This document shows, one piece after another, positions 51-58,497 of a stretch of DNA of 64,000 bases. The notes beneath the pieces are model-generated. The model was given only the letters and a program-made list of their open reading frames with translations. It did not search any database and was not told the DNA's origin. The stretch lies in the sequence record PQ850594.1; one strand, 5' to 3'. This DNA is from Escherichia phage AnnaHegner_Bas87. Position numbers and translations under genes: made by a program. How positions within the stretch are numbered: the first letter of the stretch is position 1; each line of letters begins with the position of its first letter.

Positions 51-269
51 ATGAAAATGATGAAACAGGTAACTTATGGTCTAGCTTGCTTAGGGACAGG
101 TTTTGTGATTTCCACAGCAGTACCTGTAAATGCAGTAGGCTCTCATTCTATTATAGAAGCTCCTGTAGAGAAGCTTAGTTCTCAATGTAAACAAAGGACC
201 ATTCAAAATAATTTGGTTGTTATTTGCCCAGACGCTCAATCTTCAGCTCTGAGAAAAATTCTTCCTTAA
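51..269 (+). CDS. small exported or membrane protein, possible lysis accessory
   Basis: GGAG RBS 5 nt upstream; N-terminal MKMMKQ + hydrophobic stretch + VNA-like cleavage site; sits immediately upstream of endolysin. Confidence 0.3.
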   Translation: MKMMKQVTYGLACLGTGFVISTAVPVNAVGSHSIIEAPVEKLSSQCKQRTIQNNLVVICPDAQSSALRKILP

Positions 270-302
270 TTGACCTAAAATAACAACAAAAGGAGGTCAA
301 AG

Positions 303-794
303 ATGGACGCTATCGCATTGCCGCCTGTACAGATGAGCCTAAGTCCGGCTGGTATGGAGTTTATCATGAAGCATGAAGGCATGAGAACTAAAGCCTATAA
401 AGACTCCGCTGGAATCTGGACTATATGTGTAGGGGCTACGCGCGATATGAATGGGTATCCAGTAAGACAAGGATTAACGTATTCTATAGAGGATTGTCTA
501 GCTCTGCTAGATAGAGACACACAAGACTCTGTTCGTGCTACTCAGAAAAACATAAGAGTTCCTATGCTAGCTCATGAATTTGATGCTGTCACTTCTTTCA
601 ACTTTAATGTTGGTGGTGGTGCTTTGTCAGCTTCAAAACTTAGGAAAGTGATCAACGGAGATGTGAAGGGTGATGTTTACTCAGAGTTCTTACGTTGGGA
701 TAAGATAACTGTTAAAGGTGTAAAGCAGCGGAGTCCGGGACTTCACAATCGCAGGGTTGCAGAAGCAAATCTATACACTACAGGAAAATATTAA
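303..794 (+). CDS. endolysin, T4-lysozyme-like (GH24) muramidase
   Basis: HEGMRTKAYKDSAGIWTICVGAT matches the catalytic E...D...T region of phage lysozymes; RBS AAGGAGG upstream. Confidence 0.85.
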   Translation: MDAIALPPVQMSLSPAGMEFIMKHEGMRTKAYKDSAGIWTICVGATRDMNGYPVRQGLTYSIEDCLALLDRDTQDSVRATQKNIRVPMLAHEFDAVTSFNFNVGGGALSASKLRKVINGDVKGDVYSEFLRWDKITVKGVKQRSPGLHNRRVAEANLYTTGKY

Positions 795-1619: not shown

Positions 1620-4600
1620 ATGGCGCTTTATCCAATAAAATCTTTAGGGGCTGTAGGGGTTATTGCTGACCAAGCTCCGACTGATTTAGCACCTAATGCT
1701 TTCACTAATGCTATCAATGCCCGCTTTGTAGAGCAAAGAGTTTTTAAGACGGGGGGCAATGCCCCTCTTTCTTATGTAGAAGAAGATAAAGAGATTACAC
1801 CACTTTCTTTTATATCAATGCCTTTTGACTACTATAGTGCAGGTAATAGCTTTCTGATTGTTGGTACAGACAAAAAGCTATACAAGCTAACAGATGAAAG
1901 TTTGACAGATATTAGCCGAAAGGTTGCTACTGTCACAAAAAGAGCTTCCGCTTCTATTAAGATATATCCGGTTGTTTCTCAGATTGTTCCTAAAGAAACT
2001 TCTATTTCAATGAATTTCAATCAAACTAAAGCCTTGGAAGTTTCTATTCTTCCTGAAGATGCTAATAACACAGCTTTAGTTTGGGAGGTTAGTAATTCTT
2101 CTTATGGTAAAGTAGAAGCTGACACCGAGAACCCTAAAACTGCAACCTTGACGTCTTATGAAAAAGAAGGGAATTTAGTAGTTACTGTATCAACAGCTGA
2201 TAAATCTATTAGTGCTCAGATTGCAGTAAACATCATAGATGGTGATTCTGGTATCTTCTTAAGTCAGGATACAATAACTGTCCGCAAAGGTGGTAACACA
2301 ACGCTAACTGCTGTTACTGGAAAAACTCCTGTAACTTGGGTCTCTAGTAATGCTTCTGTTGTGTCTGTAACACCTAATGCTAATACACTGACAGCTACTT
2401 TGTCTGCTAATGGTGAGGGTACTGTAACAATAACTGCTGATAACGGAACTAAGAGTGCTTCTTGTCAAGTTACTGTTATACCTCAGATAGATAGTATCAC
2501 TCTGAGTCAGACAAGCGTTCAAATGAGCAGGGGTACTCAGTATGTTTTAACTGCTACGGTTAATCCTTCAGATGCTCCCAATAAAAGCATAACTTGGACT
2601 TCCTCTAATCCTACCATTGCCACAGTTTCTGGAAATAGTACAGAAGCGGTAATAACAGGGTTACTAGCTGGGTTTACTGAAATCACAGCTGTTACTCAAG
2701 AGGGTGATAGATCAGCAACCTGTACAGTGAGAGTTGATTTAGCTGGGAGAATGATGCGAACTTCTGCAATGGCTTTATCAGAACCTGTTGTAGATTCTAT
2801 ACAAGAAGAAGAAACCAATAATACTCCTATCGAATCAGAAGAGGTTTTATATTTTGTTAATGAGCCATCTGGAGTTGATACCTCAGGAATGTATGAAGGT
2901 AACAACTTCTATGATTACTCAAACGTCAACGATATGGAAGGTTTTGCACGAGCTGCACTCATGTCCAGCGATACTCCGTTGCAATCTTTATCACTAGATA
3001 TCATCGATGCCTCTCTTGATGTTGGGGAAGATATTGTAATCACAGCCAATGCTTTGCCTGAGGGAGAGTATTTCTATCAGTGGACAGTGGACAAAGCAGG
3101 ATATGTTTCAACCACATCTACTACCGGGAAATCTCTAAAACTGACAGCTATTCGTAAAGGTGAGATCAAAGTTACTTGTACTGCTAGTCAAATGACTCAG
3201 AAAGATTATGATGCTTTTGACGACTATCCTTGGTATCACACCATAATCTCTAACTGTGCAGTGGCTACCACTCACTATGAAACACCACAGGTCAAAGAAT
3301 TTGAATCTGAGTATTTCGTAGATCTTCCGGGATGGGGTGAGCAAACAGTCGTTGATAATGATGGCAACCCTTCTGTTAAGAAATTTAACTGGAAGTGTGA
3401 GCGTATTCGTGCATTCAACAACAGACTTTTTGCTCTGAATATGAGGGAATCTAATGCATCTGGTGTAACTACTCACTACCCTCTAAGACTTCGGTGGTCG
3501 AATTTCGCTAACGAAAACAAAGCTCCATCTCTTTGGGATGATTATGCTTATGATCGTTTAACAACTTCAGACCTATCAGCAAACATTGTTGGTCAAACTG
3601 AGGCTTTGGAAAATGGGTACGCTGGGTATATAGATTTAGCAGATTCTAACGGAAGCTTGATTGATGTACTTCCTCTGAAAGATTACCTTTTTGTTTACAC
3701 GGAGTTCGAAACCTACATTGGCTCTCCAACCAATAACACATATCAGCCCCTTATGTTTAAGAAGCTGTTTAATGACTCTGGCATACTTGCTCCTGAGTGT
3801 GCAGTTGAAGTCGAAGGTGGACACTTCGTAGTAACTCAAAATGATGTGATCTTACATAATGGTGCATCTAAAAAATCTATAGCATCTAACCGAGTCAAGA
3901 ATCTTCTCATTAATGAGATCTGTCTAGTAAACCCTCTAGCTACTAGAGTTCACCTACACCAAGACAAGAAAGAGGTTTGGGTTTTATATGTAGGTCCGGG
4001 AGAGCCTAAAGAGAGTTTTGCTTGTAATAAAGCCGCTGTTTGGAATTATGAGTTTGACACTTGGTCTTTCCGTACAATACCATATGCTCAGTGTATTGGG
4101 TTAGTCGATCCACCAGTTCTTGAGAGAGGTCCAATCTGGGCAGATTTTCAAGAGATCACTTGGGATGATCCCTCTATTAACCAATTAGTCTGGAGAAAGG
4201 ATGCTAATAACTTCCGTCAAAGGATTACAATAGTTGGCTCTTTCCTGAAGGGATTCTATCAAGTGGATGTTGGTGCTCTGGACTACATCTACGATAGAAC
4301 CAATGATAGGATTATAGAAAAACCTTTAGAAATGAGGCTAGAAAGAACTGGTATTGATTTTGATAATGTCACTAATGAGTGGAATCAAAAACATATTAAT
4401 AGATTTAGACCTCAAGTTACTGGTACAGGTACTTATACTTTTGAAGTCGGTGGAAGTCAATTCTCAAACGAGTATGGACACAATCACTCAACTAAAGAGT
4501 TTAGGGTAGGCTCAGATCGTCATGTATCCGTGAGACTGAACCATCCATACCTATTCTATAATGTTATAGATAATGATGTTAACAGTAATGCTTCTATGAA

Positions 4601-6701: not shown

Positions 6702-7499
6702 ATGACAAAAATAATGGGAGTGTCAGAGCTTGACCCTTTGGTCCAACAAGCTTCTAAGAAATATGGCATTCCTGCTGCTCTTATACATGCAGTGATTCAG
6801 AGAGAGTCTAATGGAAGACCTTCTGTTGAATCTGGTACAGGACCAGTAGGTTTAATGCAAATCAGTAAGGGGTTGGCTAAAGATTATGGATATAAACTTG
6901 AAGATAGGTTAGACCCTGCAAAGAATATTGACATGGGTGCTAGATATTTAAGAGATAACCTGAAAGCTTTTGATGGTGATGTGAGGAAGGCTTTGGTGGG
7001 GTATTCAGAAGGAACTGGTGGTGCTAAGCAAATGTTTGCTGGTAAGAGAGGGTTTACACCTCAAGCTTTAGATTCAATGAATAATAAGCTGTTCCTACCA
7101 TTCTTTGATAAGAACACAGCAGCGGCACAAGTGGCTAATCCTGTAGGTGCTTTGAAAGCAGTTCAGCCTGTGGACCAGTTTGATTCTAATACGCTGACTA
7201 GAGAAGGTGCTGCAAACGCTCCTACTCAAGCAGAGATAGCTGCAAGCAAGGCTGGAGCTTTAGGTGGTCGTCCTGTAGAGTTTTACTCTGATGAACAATC
7301 TACTGGGGAAAATCAAAAACCTCAACAGAACTTTGGAAATGCTGTATTGGCAGCTGCTTCTATGCTTGCAGGAAAACAGCCTAACTCTCAAACCGTACAG
7401 AGAGCACATGCCCCTACTCAAGCAGGTTCTCGATACAGTCCACAAACACAAGCCGTGCTGAGACGTTTGTCTAGCATAGGTACTGATATTTACAGATAA
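6702..7499 (+). CDS. virion-associated lytic transglycosylase (SLT domain)
   Basis: ESNGRPSVESGTGPVGLMQIS matches the SLT catalytic Glu and GLMQ motif. Confidence 0.7.
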   Translation: MTKIMGVSELDPLVQQASKKYGIPAALIHAVIQRESNGRPSVESGTGPVGLMQISKGLAKDYGYKLEDRLDPAKNIDMGARYLRDNLKAFDGDVRKALVGYSEGTGGAKQMFAGKRGFTPQALDSMNNKLFLPFFDKNTAAAQVANPVGALKAVQPVDQFDSNTLTREGAANAPTQAEIAASKAGALGGRPVEFYSDEQSTGENQKPQQNFGNAVLAAASMLAGKQPNSQTVQRAHAPTQAGSRYSPQTQAVLRRLSSIGTDIYR

Positions 7500-11246: not shown

Positions 11247-11255
11247 TAATGTATA
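11247..11255 (+). promoter_or_regulatory. TAATGTATA phage-sigma promoter-like element
   Basis: exact TAATGTATA about 37 nt upstream of the 11292 start codon, followed by AAGGAGA RBS. Confidence 0.5.
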
Positions 11256-54005: not shown

Positions 54006-54178
54006 TTGATTAACACCAAATCAGTACGACGTTCGAAGGAAGGAGAAGATTCACCATTCCACTGAACAAGATAACAGAGAACACCATCAATCGTTGTTCT
54101 CCGACGAATAACACCTGTTTGAGTACCGCCAACAAGGCGAACAGTGTTACCAGTGGTAAACTTAACCTTTGAGCGCAT
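54002..54178 (-). CDS. hypothetical small basic protein
   Basis: start moved to internal Met; overlaps the 3' end of the upstream gene. Confidence 0.3.
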   Translation of the reverse strand: MRSKVKFTTGNTVRLVGGTQTGVIRRRTTIDGVLCYLVQWNGESSPSFERRTDLVLIK

Positions 54179-54467
54179 CCTCTGTTTCCTCATTCTGGCG
54201 TTTAATTTCTTCAGTGAGTTGCTTGTTGAGATCTTGAATACGTTTAATCTCCCAACCCAAAGAAGCCAAACGATCATTACGTGCTTCAATTTGCTCCTGC
54301 ATCTTGAGCAGTTTGGAACGAACATCAGCATTAAAGACTTCCTCTTGCTCAAGAAGGAACTCATAACGACGCTTCCAGCTTGCTGACTTATTACTTAACG
54401 CAATAAATCCTAGAACAGAAATCGTTACGGTGAGTACGAGAAGGAATCTATAAACCTCTAAAGTCAT
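54162..54467 (-). CDS. membrane-anchored coiled-coil protein
   Basis: N-terminal TM (FLLVLTVTISVLGFIAL) then heptad-rich Glu/Lys/Leu/Gln segment. Confidence 0.45.
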   Translation of the reverse strand: MTLEVYRFLLVLTVTISVLGFIALSNKSASWKRRYEFLLEQEEVFNADVRSKLLKMQEQIEARNDRLASLGWEIKRIQDLNKQLTEEIKRQNEETEDALKG

Positions 54468-54668
54468 ATCTTTATCCTCTTAAAGTAAGATATTATAAGA
54501 AATGTTATTTAGAATTTATTATTTCTAAACTTAATTTCTATCAATAATTTTCAGAGGTCTATATACAGTCATTACCTCTGGTCCCAAATCACTTCCACTT
54601 TTTGCAGAGAAAATCATAAGTGTGTGATTTATAAGGAAATTTAGTTTGTCAATCTTGGCACCTATGAA

Positions 54669-55055
54669 TCAATCACGGGCACTATTATTGAACACTAAAT
54701 CACCACAATACATTGGATTGGTATACCACTTTGGCACCCCTTCGCTCTTACTCTGAAAGTATGTACCGCTGTATAAAGGCACATAACCTCTCTTCAGTGC
54801 ACGTCTTGCAAGCCCCTCGCTCTCTCTGATTGACTTCTTTATCAGAGGATTATCATCACGAATCAGCTTTACATAACGTTTAAAAGGTTTCTCCTTCTTT
54901 AATAGGACGGGTATCCACTCGAACTGGTTTCGTTGATTTATAACCTGCTCGGCAGTCAGTTTTCGTTGTGACATTCTGTTTATTACGGTATCCGCAACTA
55001 ATGCTTTACATGCGGTTGGCTGGTTCCCTGCCTCATAATAAATAGTCAATGTCAA
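54669..55055 (-). CDS. SleB/CwlJ-like cell-wall hydrolase domain protein
   Basis: IYYEAGNQPTACKALVADTVINR...QFEW and later ARRALKRGYVPLY..TYF parallel the Hydrolase_2 pattern. Confidence 0.5.
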   Translation of the reverse strand: MTLTIYYEAGNQPTACKALVADTVINRMSQRKLTAEQVINQRNQFEWIPVLLKKEKPFKRYVKLIRDDNPLIKKSIRESEGLARRALKRGYVPLYSGTYFQSKSEGVPKWYTNPMYCGDLVFNNSARD

Positions 55056-55107
55056 AAGTAGCTGGGCCGTTGTTATCAGAACTTACTACCCCCTTGTTTT
55101 ACGGGCA

Positions 55108-55134
55108 TAAAAAAGCCCCATCCGAAGACGGGGC
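55108..55134 (-). terminator. rho-independent terminator (minus strand)
   Basis: GCCCCG-loop-TGGGGC hairpin followed on minus strand by TTTTTTAT. Confidence 0.5.
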
Positions 55135-55373
55135 GACCTGAAAGAGTGAACATGACCTCACTCATTTAAGAATCCTCGTAAAGACTCTTAAAAAAGAGGC
55201 CTCGTTAAAGGCCCGGTCAAATGACCATCCAATAGGGATTGAACCATGCCAATGATTCACAAAGGGAGTTCCCTTTAGGCATCACTAGCTACGCAAAAAG
55301 CCGCACAAAGGCGGCAGACAAAAAGACGCTCAAGAAGAGCGTCATAGTAGTTGACCACTGGTACAGAAGGGGC

Positions 55374-55817
55374 TTACTTAACTCTTGCTGTTTTGATTGG
55401 GTCAATATATTTTTCAACTCCCCATTTATGTTTACTATCAGCGTAGAAAACATCTGGTGCACATTGGCTAGTAGTAGGAAATGCTTTCGGTGGCTTAGTG
55501 CTACCTTTATTCTTCTGCTTACCTTTAGTGCGACCATTACAGAAGATTTCTAAACGTTTCTCTTCTTCTGTTTTCGCTGCACCGTTGGTTAACAAGGAAC
55601 GCTTATGATCAGCAAGAAGAAGCGCATCAGCACGGTGAACACGACGACCTAACACCTTCGCTACGGTAGAAGGTTTATGTTCTTGAGCGGCTTGTTTGAT
55701 AGCTCTTCGTTTAAGGCTACGTTTGCTAATATGGTTAACAGCGGCTGGCTTTTCTTTTTCCAGCTCACTCATAGAGAACACTCGTCCGCCTTTCATGCTG
55801 ATTTTAGATTTAGCCAT
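55374..55817 (-). CDS. hypothetical basic protein
   Basis: Lys/Arg-rich 147 aa ORF. Confidence 0.4.
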   Translation of the reverse strand: MAKSKISMKGGRVFSMSELEKEKPAAVNHISKRSLKRRAIKQAAQEHKPSTVAKVLGRRVHRADALLLADHKRSLLTNGAAKTEEEKRLEIFCNGRTKGKQKNKGSTKPPKAFPTTSQCAPDVFYADSKHKWGVEKYIDPIKTARVK

Positions 55818-57558: not shown

Positions 57559-57616
57559 CTTTCAATTGTAAGGGCACTATGCCCCGCTCTCTATGAGCTT
57601 TTTAAGTCACTATTGA

Positions 57617-57656
57617 CTTATCAATAATCACTCAATATCAAGTAATTATTGATAAG
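57617..57656. promoter_or_regulatory. perfect 12 bp inverted repeat, operator-like
   Basis: CTTATCAATAAT-16 nt-ATTATTGATAAG about 60-100 nt upstream of the 57558 start. Confidence 0.4.
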
Positions 57657-58468
57657 CGAGGCGGTCTTATCAGGAGTTAACCTTGCCGCCTCCTTATCCG
57701 TGATGTTTCATCTGGTATCTTTAATTAGTCGCTATAAATAAAGCCGACCTGATAGCGATGATCAATCATCACAATAAGGCAGTGCGTCCGACTCTATTTA
57801 ATTACTTTATCGTAACCGTCGGCAATATCGTCTACTTTGCTTTCGCTCCCGCCTATCCTTTTGTACTAACTCTCAATCGCTAACCATCGCCCACTACGGG
57901 AGGTTATTGCGAAAGAGTCATTAGCCGTCTAATACATTGACGTTTTATATCTTTCAGCAGGTTTACTACATAAACTGATTATGTACGCCATCAATAGTGG
58001 CCTCAAATCATTCACATCGTAAACGTTCACACTAAACCTTTTTGTTAAATAGCAATTTGCCACTTTTTAACCATTCACCGCCGCCCCCAATTGGGCGTTA
58101 ATTCGTCGGATTTGCCTACCCTGATAAACTTCTTTCACTGTAGCACCTTGTTAGCGATGGCCGCCGCTACCCTTTAACCGTGGGCGATTAGTTTAGGCCG
58201 TTGCGTGTACTCAATGAATCCGTTTTATCAGTGGTGACGTTTCCAGTTAAGGGATTGTAAAAACTGTTTACCCTGATAATTTAGGGAGTCTTACGCCGTT
58301 TTATCTGGTATGTTTTCCGATGGTTATTATCATCCAACATATTCAACCGATATAGGAGAATGTTTAAATTGTTAAAGAGCGGTAAATCTATCAGTGTGCT
58401 TTCTCACACTATGCAACTGTTAGCCGTTGTTACGCTTTTCTTAAGCGGTGAATTGCTTAAGTGTGCTC

Positions 58469-58497
58469 ATTATGAATCATGCTGTTTTAGCTGTCAA
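58469..58497 (-). promoter_or_regulatory. sigma-70-like promoter (TTGACA-17 bp-CATAAT), leftward
   Basis: on minus strand TTGACA at 58492-58497 and CATAAT at 58469-58474; part of a 38 bp repeat. Confidence 0.45.

What the first reader, a model, noticed from the sequence alone, without database searches (positions are those of the whole stretch)
54669..55055. SleB/CwlJ-like cell-wall hydrolase domain encoded among early genes
The protein matches the Hydrolase_2 pattern, yet it sits in the minus-strand early block, far from the plus-strand endolysin and SLT genes. That makes three peptidoglycan-hydrolase-type domains in one window, with this one in an unexpected expression context.
Basis: partly seen in the sequence, partly recalled or inferred. 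Interest (0 to 1): 0.4.

Follow-up and report, generated by a model that had tools for sequence, protein, structure and literature searches.

The report
Accessory SleB-like wall hydrolase, throttled expression
This phiEco32-like coliphage carries a real, well-conserved gene for a small SleB/CwlJ-type cell-wall-cutting enzyme among its early genes; related phages already carry that annotation, so it is ordinary, apart from an apparent CTG start codon and a stack of transcription terminators in front that suggest it is made in very small amounts.

Summary
ORF 54669..55055 (-) matches Pfam Hydrolase_2 just above threshold (28.9 bits against 27). A profile of its family matches the SleB catalytic domain at E 5e-16. 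An AlphaFold model (pLDDT 91.6) finds only SleB structures in the PDB. Glu16 aligns with the SleB catalytic glutamate, and dN/dS is 0.04-0.2.

The window is a Kuravirus/Suseptimavirus-like phage, and the gene is the ortholog of phiEco32 gp117.

Three refinements:
- **Start codon.** The gene most likely starts 24 nt upstream, at a CTG (55079..55077) behind a strong Shine-Dalgarno sequence, giving 136 aa. Relatives have ATG or TTG at exactly that codon.
- **Expression.** Four intrinsic terminators precede the gene, and no promoter was found, so expression is probably low.
- **Not the main endolysin.** The leaderless subfamily is shared by Gordonclarkvirinae and Grimontviridae, whose main endolysins are of different types.

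My best reading is an accessory lytic-transglycosylase-type enzyme. Relatives (phage Paul, XT18; UniProt for SU10) are already annotated "cell wall hydrolase", so novelty is low. Its biological role is untested.

The parts
54669..55079 (-). Coding sequence of the SleB/CwlJ-like (Hydrolase_2) protein, 136 aa when read from the conserved CTG. Ortholog of phiEco32 gp117 and SU10 CDS116.
   Evidence: dN/dS 0.04-0.22 against nine relatives
55077..55079 (-). CTG, the probable (non-canonical) start codon. It is the second codon after an in-frame TAA (55085..55083), with one GTT codon between them.
   Evidence: CTG at this codon in 15 of 15 kuravirus-like genomes. Homologs at 46-69% identity, and the 7-11, A24 and Privateer homologs, start at exactly this aligned codon with ATG or TTG. 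The 8 codons down to 55056 show three third-position synonymous differences, and the only amino-acid change is Leu/Met at the ATG/CTT codon. Bas86 and Bas89 records annotate 136 aa from this codon. AF2 helix 4-17 has pLDDT 93.
55088..55095 (-). Shine-Dalgarno sequence AAGGGGGT (AGGAGGT in most relatives), 8 nt before the CTG
   Evidence: Conserved in all aligned relatives. No SD-like sequence precedes the TTG at 55055 or the ATG used in phiEco32 (read directly).
55053..55055 (-). The neighbouring codon is ATG in phiEco32-type genomes and CTT here. This is a possible secondary start without an SD.
55032..55034 (-). GAG codon for Glu16, the predicted catalytic acid/base
   Evidence: Invariant in 46 of 46 family members. 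Aligns with the Glu of the SleB YGESRGE motif in 4F55 and 4FET. The catalytic glutamate is essential for SleB lytic transglycosylase activity (PMC12331253).
54975..54977 (-). AGA codon for Arg35 (INRM motif), a conserved catalytic-groove residue
   Evidence: Invariant in alignment A2. Corresponds to the NR-motif Arg listed in the B. subtilis SleB groove (E203, R222, Y278, H301; bioRxiv 10.64898/2026.06.01.729290). The mapping is by motif alignment and is an inference.
55115..55134 (-). Intrinsic terminator T4: GCCCCGTC-TTCG-GATGGGGC followed by TTTTTT, ending 35 nt before the CTG
   Evidence: Conserved in position, with compensatory stem changes, in 9 kuravirus-like genomes and in L027 and L030; a terminator also lies 45 nt before the start in phage 7-11.
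55197..55214 (-). Terminator-like hairpin T3, present only in the window/SU7/Bas86 group
55300..55315 (-). Terminator-like hairpin T2 (GCCGC-CTTTGT-GCGGC followed by TTTTT), conserved in most relatives
55325..55343 (-). Terminator-like hairpin T1, just after the stop of the upstream 147-aa gene
   Evidence: annotated as a terminator in SU7
303..794 (+). Context: the phage's canonical endolysin, a soluble GH24 lysozyme with the E-8-D-5-T motif and no N-terminal membrane segment, next to a one-TMD holin-like ORF at 51..269
   Evidence: [quoted passage not shown]
6702..7499 (+). Context: SLT-domain protein inside the structural module, presumably a virion-associated transglycosylase

Best explanation
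The locus encodes an intact, selectively maintained, single-domain, leaderless member of the SleB/CwlJ (Pfam Hydrolase_2) family of peptidoglycan glycan-strand-cleaving enzymes. It is the ortholog of phiEco32 gp117.

Shown here:
- It has the SleB fold and motifs, with Glu16 at the catalytic position.
- It is under strong purifying selection.
- It belongs to a distinct 133-144-aa subfamily carried by prolate (C3) podophages of both Gordonclarkvirinae and Grimontviridae, in the non-structural leftward arm.
- These phages also have a separate dedicated endolysin: GH24 lysozyme plus holin here, and a T5-like L-Ala-D-Glu peptidase in Grimontviridae.

Inferred:
- Translation starts at the conserved CTG (55079) behind a strong Shine-Dalgarno sequence. 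CUG initiates at roughly 1-2% of AUG in E. coli.
- Transcription reaches the gene only by read-through of up to four intrinsic terminators from the sigma-70 early promoters about 2.5-3.4 kb upstream. The protein would therefore be made in small amounts through the cycle.
- With no export signal, it stays in the cytoplasm until the holin permeabilises the inner membrane.
- It then cuts MurNAc-GlcNAc bonds, by analogy with SleB as a lytic transglycosylase, alongside the GH24 lysozyme. That makes it an accessory muralytic enzyme rather than the main endolysin.

The confidence of 0.5 is for the whole statement. The identity part alone I put at about 0.9, the CTG start at about 0.7, and the accessory-lysis role at about 0.4.
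For: Identity:
- Pfam hit of 28.9 bits against 27.
- Family profile against SleB structures at E 4.9e-16, with YtEAgge aligned to YGESRGE.
- AF2 model at pLDDT 91.6. Foldseek finds only SleB in the PDB and SleB-domain phage proteins in BFVD.
- E16, R35 and Q52 are invariant in 46 sequences.

Still functional:
- dN/dS is 0.04-0.22 at dS up to 0.75.
- The gene is present in 127 phage records.

Start codon. CUG efficiency is from bioRxiv 10.1101/063800.

Terminators and lack of a promoter. The SU10 promoter table places early promoters only upstream of CDS125 and between CDS120 and CDS121. The matching promoter-like sites in the window lie at 57565-58497.

Not the main endolysin:
- GH24 lysozyme and a holin-like ORF lie in the late module.
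- Privateer, P59, 3H10_20, CsaP_009, BUCT695, A24, ECO319P1, PKM.Lu.22.1 and YP1 each carry both a peptidase endolysin and this hydrolase. The Privateer paper names the peptidase as the endolysin (PMC7881722).

No leader: 15-16 residues precede the catalytic Glu, against 63-116 residues with a signal or TM segment in more distant family members.
Against: - No enzymatic, transcript or protein data exist for any member of this subfamily. The SU10 supplement gives CDS116 no function, and the phiEco32 proteomics and macroarray papers are not held.
- One of the four groove residues listed for B. subtilis SleB is lost: His301 corresponds to Leu128 in all kuravirus-branch sequences, while the 7-11 branch keeps His.
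- SleB itself needs muramic-delta-lactam, which E. coli wall lacks, so the substrate and bond specificity here are unknown.
- A cytoplasmic enzyme should be harmless, so the accessory-endolysin model does not explain the throttled expression.
- The CTG start is inferred, not observed. Translation could instead start at TTG 55055.
- One metagenomic genome has a C-terminal deletion (P0016), so the gene may be dispensable.
Confidence: 0.5

Rival explanations
1. Self-exporting early enzyme. The uniformly uncharged, hydrophobic N-terminal helix acts as an uncleaved, SAR-like signal. The enzyme reaches the periplasm by itself, is held inactive with Glu16 at the membrane, and remodels or weakens the wall before holin triggering. 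Tight throttling of expression is needed because it is toxic.
For: In all 33 full-length members of the leaderless subfamily in the 46-sequence alignment, the 15 residues before the catalytic Glu carry 0-1 charges and have mean Kyte-Doolittle hydropathy of 1.0-1.75. The same helix in members with a leader has 2-8 charges and hydropathy of -0.9 to 1.1. That hydropathy is similar to SAR segments of R21 and P1 Lyz, whose sequences I recalled from memory. Weak start codons run through the subfamily: CTG in all kuraviruses and TTG in 5 of 9 other lineages. Terminators sit directly upstream. Both features fit a protein that is harmful if overproduced.
Against: The hydrophobic stretch is only 15-16 residues, and 9 in the window protein once Gln6 is counted, against about 20 or more for known SAR domains. 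The summed Hessa-scale cost of a 19-residue window is about +8 kcal/mol here (my hand calculation). No positively charged N-region exists except in the Privateer type. AF2 packs helix 4-17 confidently into the fold. A 15-20-residue helical insertion relative to SleB could simply bury that helix. No paper links SAR with SleB-type enzymes. No signal-peptide predictor was available.
Confidence: 0.12
2. Decaying relic. The gene is the ancestral endolysin of the C3 podophage lineage, made redundant when other endolysins were acquired. It is now losing expression signals (ATG to TTG to CTG, no promoter, terminators in front) on its way to loss.
For: The canonical start is lost in all kuravirus-like genomes. 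No promoter was found, and terminators lie upstream. The groove His is replaced by Leu. One natural C-terminal deletion exists (P0016). GenBank annotators disagree on the ORF, giving 101, 110, 128, 129 or 136 aa.
Against: dN/dS is 0.04-0.22 with saturating synonymous divergence. The SD, the CTG and the reading frame are intact in 15 of 15 genomes across several genera. The catalytic Glu and the core motifs are invariant. Grimontviridae keep the gene with ATG or TTG starts beside their own endolysin. A relic would not survive across two virus families.
Confidence: 0.08
3. Non-lytic function. The SleB fold is used as a wall-fragment-binding or regulatory protein in host takeover, for example to sequester or process cytoplasmic muropeptides or to inhibit a host wall enzyme, rather than to help lysis.
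For: It sits among host-takeover genes of unknown function (PMC8948821; PHROG hits all 'unknown'). It has no export signal. It is conserved independently of whichever endolysin the phage uses. One groove residue is altered.
Against: The catalytic Glu and the NR-motif Arg are strictly invariant, which is what an enzyme would show. No cytoplasmic substrate with a MurNAc-beta-1,4-GlcNAc bond is known (my own knowledge). There is no co-varying partner gene: the neighbours differ between the two virus families.
Confidence: 0.15

Closest known systems
Bacillus SleB catalytic domain (PDB 4F55, 4FET), a germination-specific lytic transglycosylase
   Same: Same fold (Foldseek prob 1.00, TM about 0.6). 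Full-length profile match at E 5e-16. The catalytic Glu at the end of helix 1, the NR-motif Arg, and the QF, YF, P-x-W and C-terminal G-x-x-x-F motifs are all conserved.
   Different: It has no signal peptide and no N-terminal PG-binding domain. Relative to SleB it has a 15-20-residue helical insertion after the QF(E/S)W motif. Helix 1 is uncharged. The groove His is replaced by Leu128 in the kuravirus branch. The host wall lacks muramic-delta-lactam, the SleB specificity determinant. The sequences are only 17-18% identical.
Bacillus CwlJ
   Same: Single-domain, about 140 aa, leaderless Hydrolase_2 protein with the same catalytic glutamate (PMC12331253). This is the closest architectural match.
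   Different: CwlJ is a spore-coat protein activated by Ca-DPA, and its bond specificity has never been shown. It has no relation to phage infection. I recall its helix 1 as polar (from memory, not tested here).
Phage 'cell wall hydrolase SleB' proteins, e.g. Erwinia phage vB_EamM-Y2 endolysin and the Phapecoctavirus second lytic protein
   Same: Phage-encoded Hydrolase_2 domains. The Y2 endolysin is the best structural match outside the subfamily (TMq 0.80). Phapecoctaviruses also pair a GH24 lysozyme with a Hydrolase_2 protein (PMC10793346).
   Different: Those proteins are 160-230 aa with N-terminal extensions, and some are the phage's annotated endolysin. The protein here is minimal and leaderless, sits far from the lysis genes, and forms its own cluster. 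In the profile search, E drops from 1e-26 for the last subfamily member to 1e-9 for the nearest outsider.
phiEco32 gp117, SU10 CDS116, phage Paul gp123 (orthologs)
   Same: 81-98% identical (82-98% in the SU7, SU10 and Paul records named here), in the same position between the 147-aa gene and the TM/coiled-coil gene. Paul's is annotated 'cell wall hydrolase' with PF07486. UniProt names the SU10 protein 'Cell wall hydrolase SleB domain-containing protein'.
   Different: phiEco32-type genomes have an ATG eight codons after the CTG, where this window has CTT followed by TTG. phiEco32 also has a gp118-gp119 ('agglutinating adhesin') insertion in place of most of the upstream terminator region.

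Membership tests
Pfam Hydrolase_2 (PF07486) / SleB-CwlJ family | Profile match at or above the curated threshold | tested here: met
   28.9 bits against a gathering score of 27 (E 1.9e-6), which is marginal. The 7-11 homolog scores 61.7 bits. The family profile against SleB chains gives E 4.9e-16.
Pfam Hydrolase_2 (PF07486) / SleB-CwlJ family | SleB catalytic-domain fold | tested here: met
   AF2 model with pLDDT 91.6 and pTM 0.88. Only 4F55 and 4FET are found in the PDB, at prob 1.00, TM 0.58-0.65 and rmsd 4.1-4.7 A.
Pfam Hydrolase_2 (PF07486) / SleB-CwlJ family | Catalytic glutamate at the end of helix 1 (Y-G-E-x-R-G-E motif) | tested here: met
   Glu16 (IYYEAGNQ) aligns with the first Glu of YGESRGE and is invariant in 46 of 46 sequences. 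Its essential role in SleB is from PMC12331253.
Pfam Hydrolase_2 (PF07486) / SleB-CwlJ family | Other catalytic-groove residues (B. subtilis SleB R222, Y278, H301) | tested here: inconclusive
   Arg35 and Tyr107 are present. The His position is Leu128 (GDLVF) in all kuravirus-branch sequences, whereas the 7-11 branch has His (GNHYF). The mapping is by motif alignment, not by superposed coordinates.
Pfam Hydrolase_2 (PF07486) / SleB-CwlJ family | Lytic transglycosylase activity (1,6-anhydroMurNAc products) | not testable with these tools
   Needs purified protein and muropeptide analysis.
Phage endolysin (functional class: the enzyme of the holin-endolysin-spanin lysis pathway) | Encoded with holin or spanin genes, or expressed late | tested here: not met
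   It is more than 50 kb away, on the opposite strand, from the GH24 lysozyme and holin-like ORF at 51..794. No phage sigma (gp36) promoter motif TAATGTATA lies within 5 kb. The neighbours have no lysis-related PHROG hits.
Phage endolysin (functional class: the enzyme of the holin-endolysin-spanin lysis pathway) | It is the phage's only or principal muralytic enzyme | tested here: not met
   A canonical GH24 endolysin is present. Grimontviridae relatives carry a T5-like peptidase endolysin as well.
SAR (signal-arrest-release) endolysins | N-terminal weakly hydrophobic transmembrane segment of about 20 residues preceding or containing catalytic residues | tested here: not met
   Only 15 uncharged residues precede Glu16, interrupted by Gln6. 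The hydropathy is SAR-like but the length is too short. No dedicated predictor was available, so this is a rule-of-thumb test.
Virion-associated peptidoglycan hydrolase | Encoded in the structural module or fused to a structural protein | tested here: not met
   It lies in the non-structural arm as a stand-alone 136-aa protein. The SLT protein at 6702..7499 fills that role. The Privateer homolog is not flagged as a virion protein, while MS-verified virion proteins are marked in that record.

The most novel reading that the evidence does not exclude
The leaderless C3-podophage subfamily is a new type of self-targeting muralytic enzyme. Its all-hydrophobic N-terminal helix, which ends in the catalytic Glu, would serve as a short SAR-like membrane tether. 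The enzyme would be dosed deliberately by terminator read-through and a CTG or TTG start. It would then pre-weaken or remodel the sacculus from early infection, independently of the holin.
Probability: 0.1. Interest if true: 0.6.

Novelty: already known. Interest (0 to 1): 0.27.

Why it matters
As a domain call it adds little, because orthologs already carry this annotation.

Three things are useful:
- **Annotation.** GenBank records give this gene five different lengths (101 to 136 aa). The 101-aa versions cut off the catalytic Glu, and the predicted structure of one of them aligns poorly with the full-length model. The comparative data point to a 136-aa product from a conserved CTG. That would be a rare, testable case of a fixed non-canonical start codon in a coliphage.
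- **Biology.** The gene is one of the few shared by Gordonclarkvirinae and Grimontviridae, and it persists while the main endolysin has been swapped. Its role is therefore probably not simple redundancy, and a knockout would be informative.
- **Enzybiotics.** For lysin engineering, it is a minimal 15-kDa SleB-type domain acting on Gram-negative hosts.

Tried and rejected
- Single-sequence phmmer against PDB sequences found nothing relevant. The family profile was needed.
- NCBIfam gave no meaningful hit.
- Rfam on 54300-55500 gave only a sub-threshold anti-hemB hit (20 bits against 49.5), which I take as chance.
- A search for the phiEco32 gp36 promoter motif found exact sites at 11247, 21175, 21246 and 27525, but none near the gene. 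The sigma-70 scan found no site between 55056 and 55373. By eye I saw no convincing -35/-10 pair there.
- A 10-codon upstream mini-ORF (ATG 55108 to TGA 55076, overlapping the CTG) could have allowed translational coupling. A 1-nt indel puts it out of frame in the other genera, so I rejected it.
- I asked whether the downstream 101-aa TM/coiled-coil protein forms a mini lysis cassette with the hydrolase. It is not conserved next to the gene in Grimontviridae, and no lipoprotein partner was seen, so I rejected this.
- I asked whether the gene is the sole endolysin of the 7-11-like phages, as some records annotate it. Their relatives carry a T5-like peptidase endolysin, so I rejected this. Phage 7-11 itself was not among the 40 rows listed.
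- The phiEco32 genome/proteome and macroarray papers (PMC2587145, PMC3275717) are not held. The SU10 supplements give no function for CDS116. The svsR/Kuravirus RNA-seq paper mapped reads to the host only.

Full report
**What the window is.** The 1.1 kb around the finding is 95-98% identical to Escherichia phages vB_EcoP_PAS59, SU7, EK010, NC-B and ECBP2, and 81-84% identical to Paul, EP335 and other kuraviruses. These are Gordonclarkvirinae, the phiEco32-like prolate (C3) podophages. The window has the layout described for this group. Late structural genes are on the plus strand, and middle and early genes are on the minus strand (PMC8948821; ORF map).

**Checking the observation.**
- ORF 54669..55055 (-) exists: 128 aa with a TTG start.
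- It passes the Pfam Hydrolase_2 threshold only narrowly, at 28.9 against 27 bits, E 1.9e-6.
- Its own PHROG family (12974) is labelled 'unknown function'.
- A single-sequence search of PDB sequences finds nothing.
- A profile built from 46 family members matches the SleB catalytic domains 4F55 and 4FET at E 4.9e-16 and 2.9e-15 across the whole domain. It aligns 'niYtEAgge' with SleB 'avYGESRGE'.
- An AlphaFold2 model from that alignment is confident (pLDDT 91.6, pTM 0.88). Foldseek against the PDB returns the SleB structures and nothing else of significance (prob 1.00, TM 0.58-0.65).
- Against viral models, the top hit is the SU10 ortholog, which UniProt already names 'Cell wall hydrolase SleB domain-containing protein'.
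A GH24 Phage_lysozyme lies at 303..794(+), and an SLT-domain protein lies at 6702..7499(+) in the structural module.

**The gene is alive.** I compared it with nine relatives from four genera. dN/dS is 0.04-0.22 while dS reaches 0.6-0.75. Glu16, Arg35, Val46 and Gln52 are invariant in all 46 aligned family members. Tyr14, Ala17, Phe53, Trp55, Phe108, Pro116, Trp118 and Phe130 are nearly invariant. The catalytic glutamate is essential for SleB lytic transglycosylase activity (PMC12331253).

One caveat concerns the catalytic groove. A recent preprint lists the B. subtilis SleB groove as E203, R222, Y278 and H301. By motif alignment the window protein keeps Glu16, Arg35 and Tyr107. It has Leu128 where the His would be, and so do all kuravirus-branch sequences. 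The 7-11 branch keeps His.

**Where the gene really starts.** GenBank records disagree: 101 aa (SU7, KBNP1711), 110 aa (O18-011), 128 aa (E20-1, PAS59), 129 aa (phiEco32, Paul, XT18, Bas91, SU10) and 136 aa (Bas86, Bas89). An alignment of ten genomes shows three things:
- The ATG used in phiEco32-type genomes is CTT in the window group, where the next codon, TTG, is the only canonical option.
- Neither that ATG nor the TTG has a Shine-Dalgarno sequence.
- A strong SD (AGGAGGT; AAGGGGGT at 55095..55088 here) is conserved about 31 nt further upstream. It is followed 8 nt later by an in-frame CTG (55079..55077), the second codon after an in-frame TAA (one GTT codon lies between them).

Several lines of evidence favour the CTG:
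- The eight codons between the CTG and the ATG/TTG show three third-position synonymous differences, and the only amino-acid change is Leu/Met at the ATG/CTT codon.
- Homologs at 46-69% identity from metagenomic phage contigs are 133-136 aa. They begin 'MLTTAALLLTLTIYHEAG', at exactly the codon aligned with the CTG.
- Their DNA shows ATG (L014, L028) or TTG (L012, L027, L029, L030) at that codon behind the same SD. The start is ATG in 7-11 and A24 and TTG in Privateer.
- All 15 kuravirus-like genomes examined have CTG.
- The model places residues 4-17 in one helix with pLDDT 93.

I therefore take 54669..55079 (136 aa) as the gene and CTG as the most likely start. CUG initiates at about 1-2% of AUG in E. 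coli (range 0.02-3%; bioRxiv 10.1101/063800). This is inference, because no start-site data exist.

**Expression context.** The 320-nt spacer between the upstream 147-aa gene and this gene holds four terminator-like hairpins on the coding strand: 55343-55325, 55315-55300, 55214-55197 and 55134-55115. Shuffled sequence of the 5-kb scan region gives 3.7 terminator-like sites, against 7 found.
- The last hairpin is a C(UUCG)G-capped 8-bp stem followed by six U. It ends 35 nt before the CTG.
- It is conserved in position with compensatory stem changes across genera. A terminator in the equivalent position, 45 nt before the start, is found in L027, L030 and phage 7-11.
- The spacer as a whole folds far better than shuffles (z = -5.8).
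- Neither a sigma-70-like site nor the phage sigma motif TAATGTATA occurs between the terminators and the gene.
- The nearest early promoters are the cluster at 57565-58497. These correspond to the SU10 promoters between CDS120 and CDS121.

So the gene is physically in the early arm, but transcription should reach it only by terminator read-through, and it is then translated from a weak codon. The unusual feature is how strongly expression seems to be limited, not that the gene is early.

**Relation to lysis.**
- Kuraviruses have a holin and a GH24 lysozyme among the morphogenesis genes (PMC9965538; PMC7881722). In the window this lysozyme is soluble, with an E-8-D-5-T motif and no N-terminal membrane segment. 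A one-TMD ORF precedes it. A canonical holin would therefore also release a cytoplasmic SleB-like enzyme.
- Grimontviridae lack the kuravirus holin and lysozyme (PMC4281155). This family includes 7-11, GAP52, A24, Privateer, CsaP_009, the Proteus phages and the Aeromonas phages.
- At least nine of these phages carry both a T5-like L-Ala-D-Glu peptidase endolysin and a 140-142-aa homolog of this protein. The Privateer authors name the peptidase as the endolysin and call the homolog only 'hydrolase'.
- The SleB-like gene is thus retained in both families while the principal endolysin differs. Its genomic neighbours also differ: in Grimontviridae it lies near homologs of phiEco32 genes 84-99, and in kuraviruses between genes 116 and 120. 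It is therefore on the same arm but not strictly syntenic.

**What distinguishes the subfamily.**
- In a profile search of 5.8 billion proteins, the family forms a tight set of 133-150-aa proteins. These lie on contigs of up to 98 kb, E down to 1e-26. There is then a gap to generic Hydrolase_2 proteins at E 1e-9 or worse.
- The generic proteins have 63-116 residues, including signal or TM segments, before the catalytic Glu. The subfamily has 15-18.
- In the subfamily those residues carry 0-1 charges (mean hydropathy 1.0-1.75). The equivalent helix elsewhere has 2-8 charges.
- This raises the possibility of a short SAR-like tether. The segment is too short, though, at nine residues after Gln6 in the window protein, and it lacks a positive N-region. 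It is also packed in the model, possibly under the 15-20-residue helical insertion that the subfamily has relative to SleB. I rate this reading at about 10%.

**Conclusion.** Identity is secure: a bona fide SleB/CwlJ-family wall hydrolase gene, the ortholog of phiEco32 gp117. Its role is not established. The best-supported reading is an accessory muralytic enzyme, probably a lytic transglycosylase. It would be made at low level and reach the wall when the holin fires. The rivals are a self-exporting early enzyme, a non-lytic wall-fragment-binding role, and a decaying relic. The relic model fits the selection data poorly.

The domain identification is already in public annotation (Paul, XT18, ShigP1, EcP-vB, UniProt for SU10). 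Pairing a GH24 lysozyme with a second Hydrolase_2 protein is also seen in other coliphages. The finding is therefore real but ordinary. The details I found no report of in the annotations and papers examined are the conserved CTG start, the terminator stack, and retention across two virus families independently of the endolysin.

Noticed in passing
window 55056-55373 (minus strand): The 320-nt spacer upstream of the gene is densely structured, with about nine hairpins (MFE z-score -5.8). Besides the terminators it holds a 12-bp hairpin capped by a UACG tetraloop (about 55192-55165). That stem covaries between genera: 10 of 24 predicted pairs show compensatory changes. It could be a processed leader, an attenuator or a small-RNA locus. 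There is no Rfam match.
   Followed up: partly
window 55163-55144 (minus strand): A hairpin with a conserved 8-nt loop, GGTCATGT. Its 6-bp stem is GAGTGA/TCACTC here, AGCAAC/GTTGCT in Paul-type genomes and GCAAT/ATTGC in Bas89 and XT18. It also occurs in distant relatives L027 and L030, directly upstream of the last terminator. In Paul-type genomes its 5' arm can alternatively pair with an upstream GTTGCT segment.
   Followed up: partly
window 54580-54552 and 54652-54647 (minus strand): Downstream of the stop codon there is a perfectly conserved TTGACA, with only a 13-nt gap to TATAAA, so it is not a canonical promoter. There is also a hairpin (CAGAGGT/ACCTCTG) whose stem covaries between genera. 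Its 15-nt loop AATGACTGTATATAG is conserved and resembles the phage sigma (gp36) promoter core TGTATA.
   Followed up: no
window 54162-54467 (minus strand): The next gene (101 aa) is annotated 'DNA helicase' in many relatives and in PHROG 12154. Its sequence is an N-terminal transmembrane helix followed by a charged coiled coil. The helicase label looks like a propagated annotation error.
   Followed up: partly
L006 (phiEco32) 2090-3023, compared with window 55080-55373: phiEco32 carries two extra genes, gp119 'agglutinating adhesin' and gp118, between gp120 and gp117. They replace most of the terminator-rich spacer found in the window and in the other relatives examined.
   Followed up: no
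P0016 (113 aa; Logan contig of 76,344 nt): One kuravirus-like assembly has a deletion that removes the C-terminal third of the hydrolase and fuses it to the downstream spacer. This suggests the gene can be lost without killing the phage, if the assembly is correct.
   Followed up: no
window 54669-54974, compared with SU7, KBNP1711 and EP335 records: Several GenBank and UniProt entries start this gene at the internal ATG (Met36), giving 101 aa without the catalytic Glu. That version falls below the Pfam threshold (17.4 bits), and the predicted structure of one such entry aligns poorly with the full-length model (TMq 0.28).
   Followed up: yes
window 57565-58497 (minus strand): A cluster of sigma-70-like promoters. 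The best is TTGACA-17-CATAAT at 58497-58469. The cluster matches the three early promoters described between SU10 CDS120 and CDS121, and it is the likely source of any transcript that reaches the hydrolase gene.
   Followed up: partly
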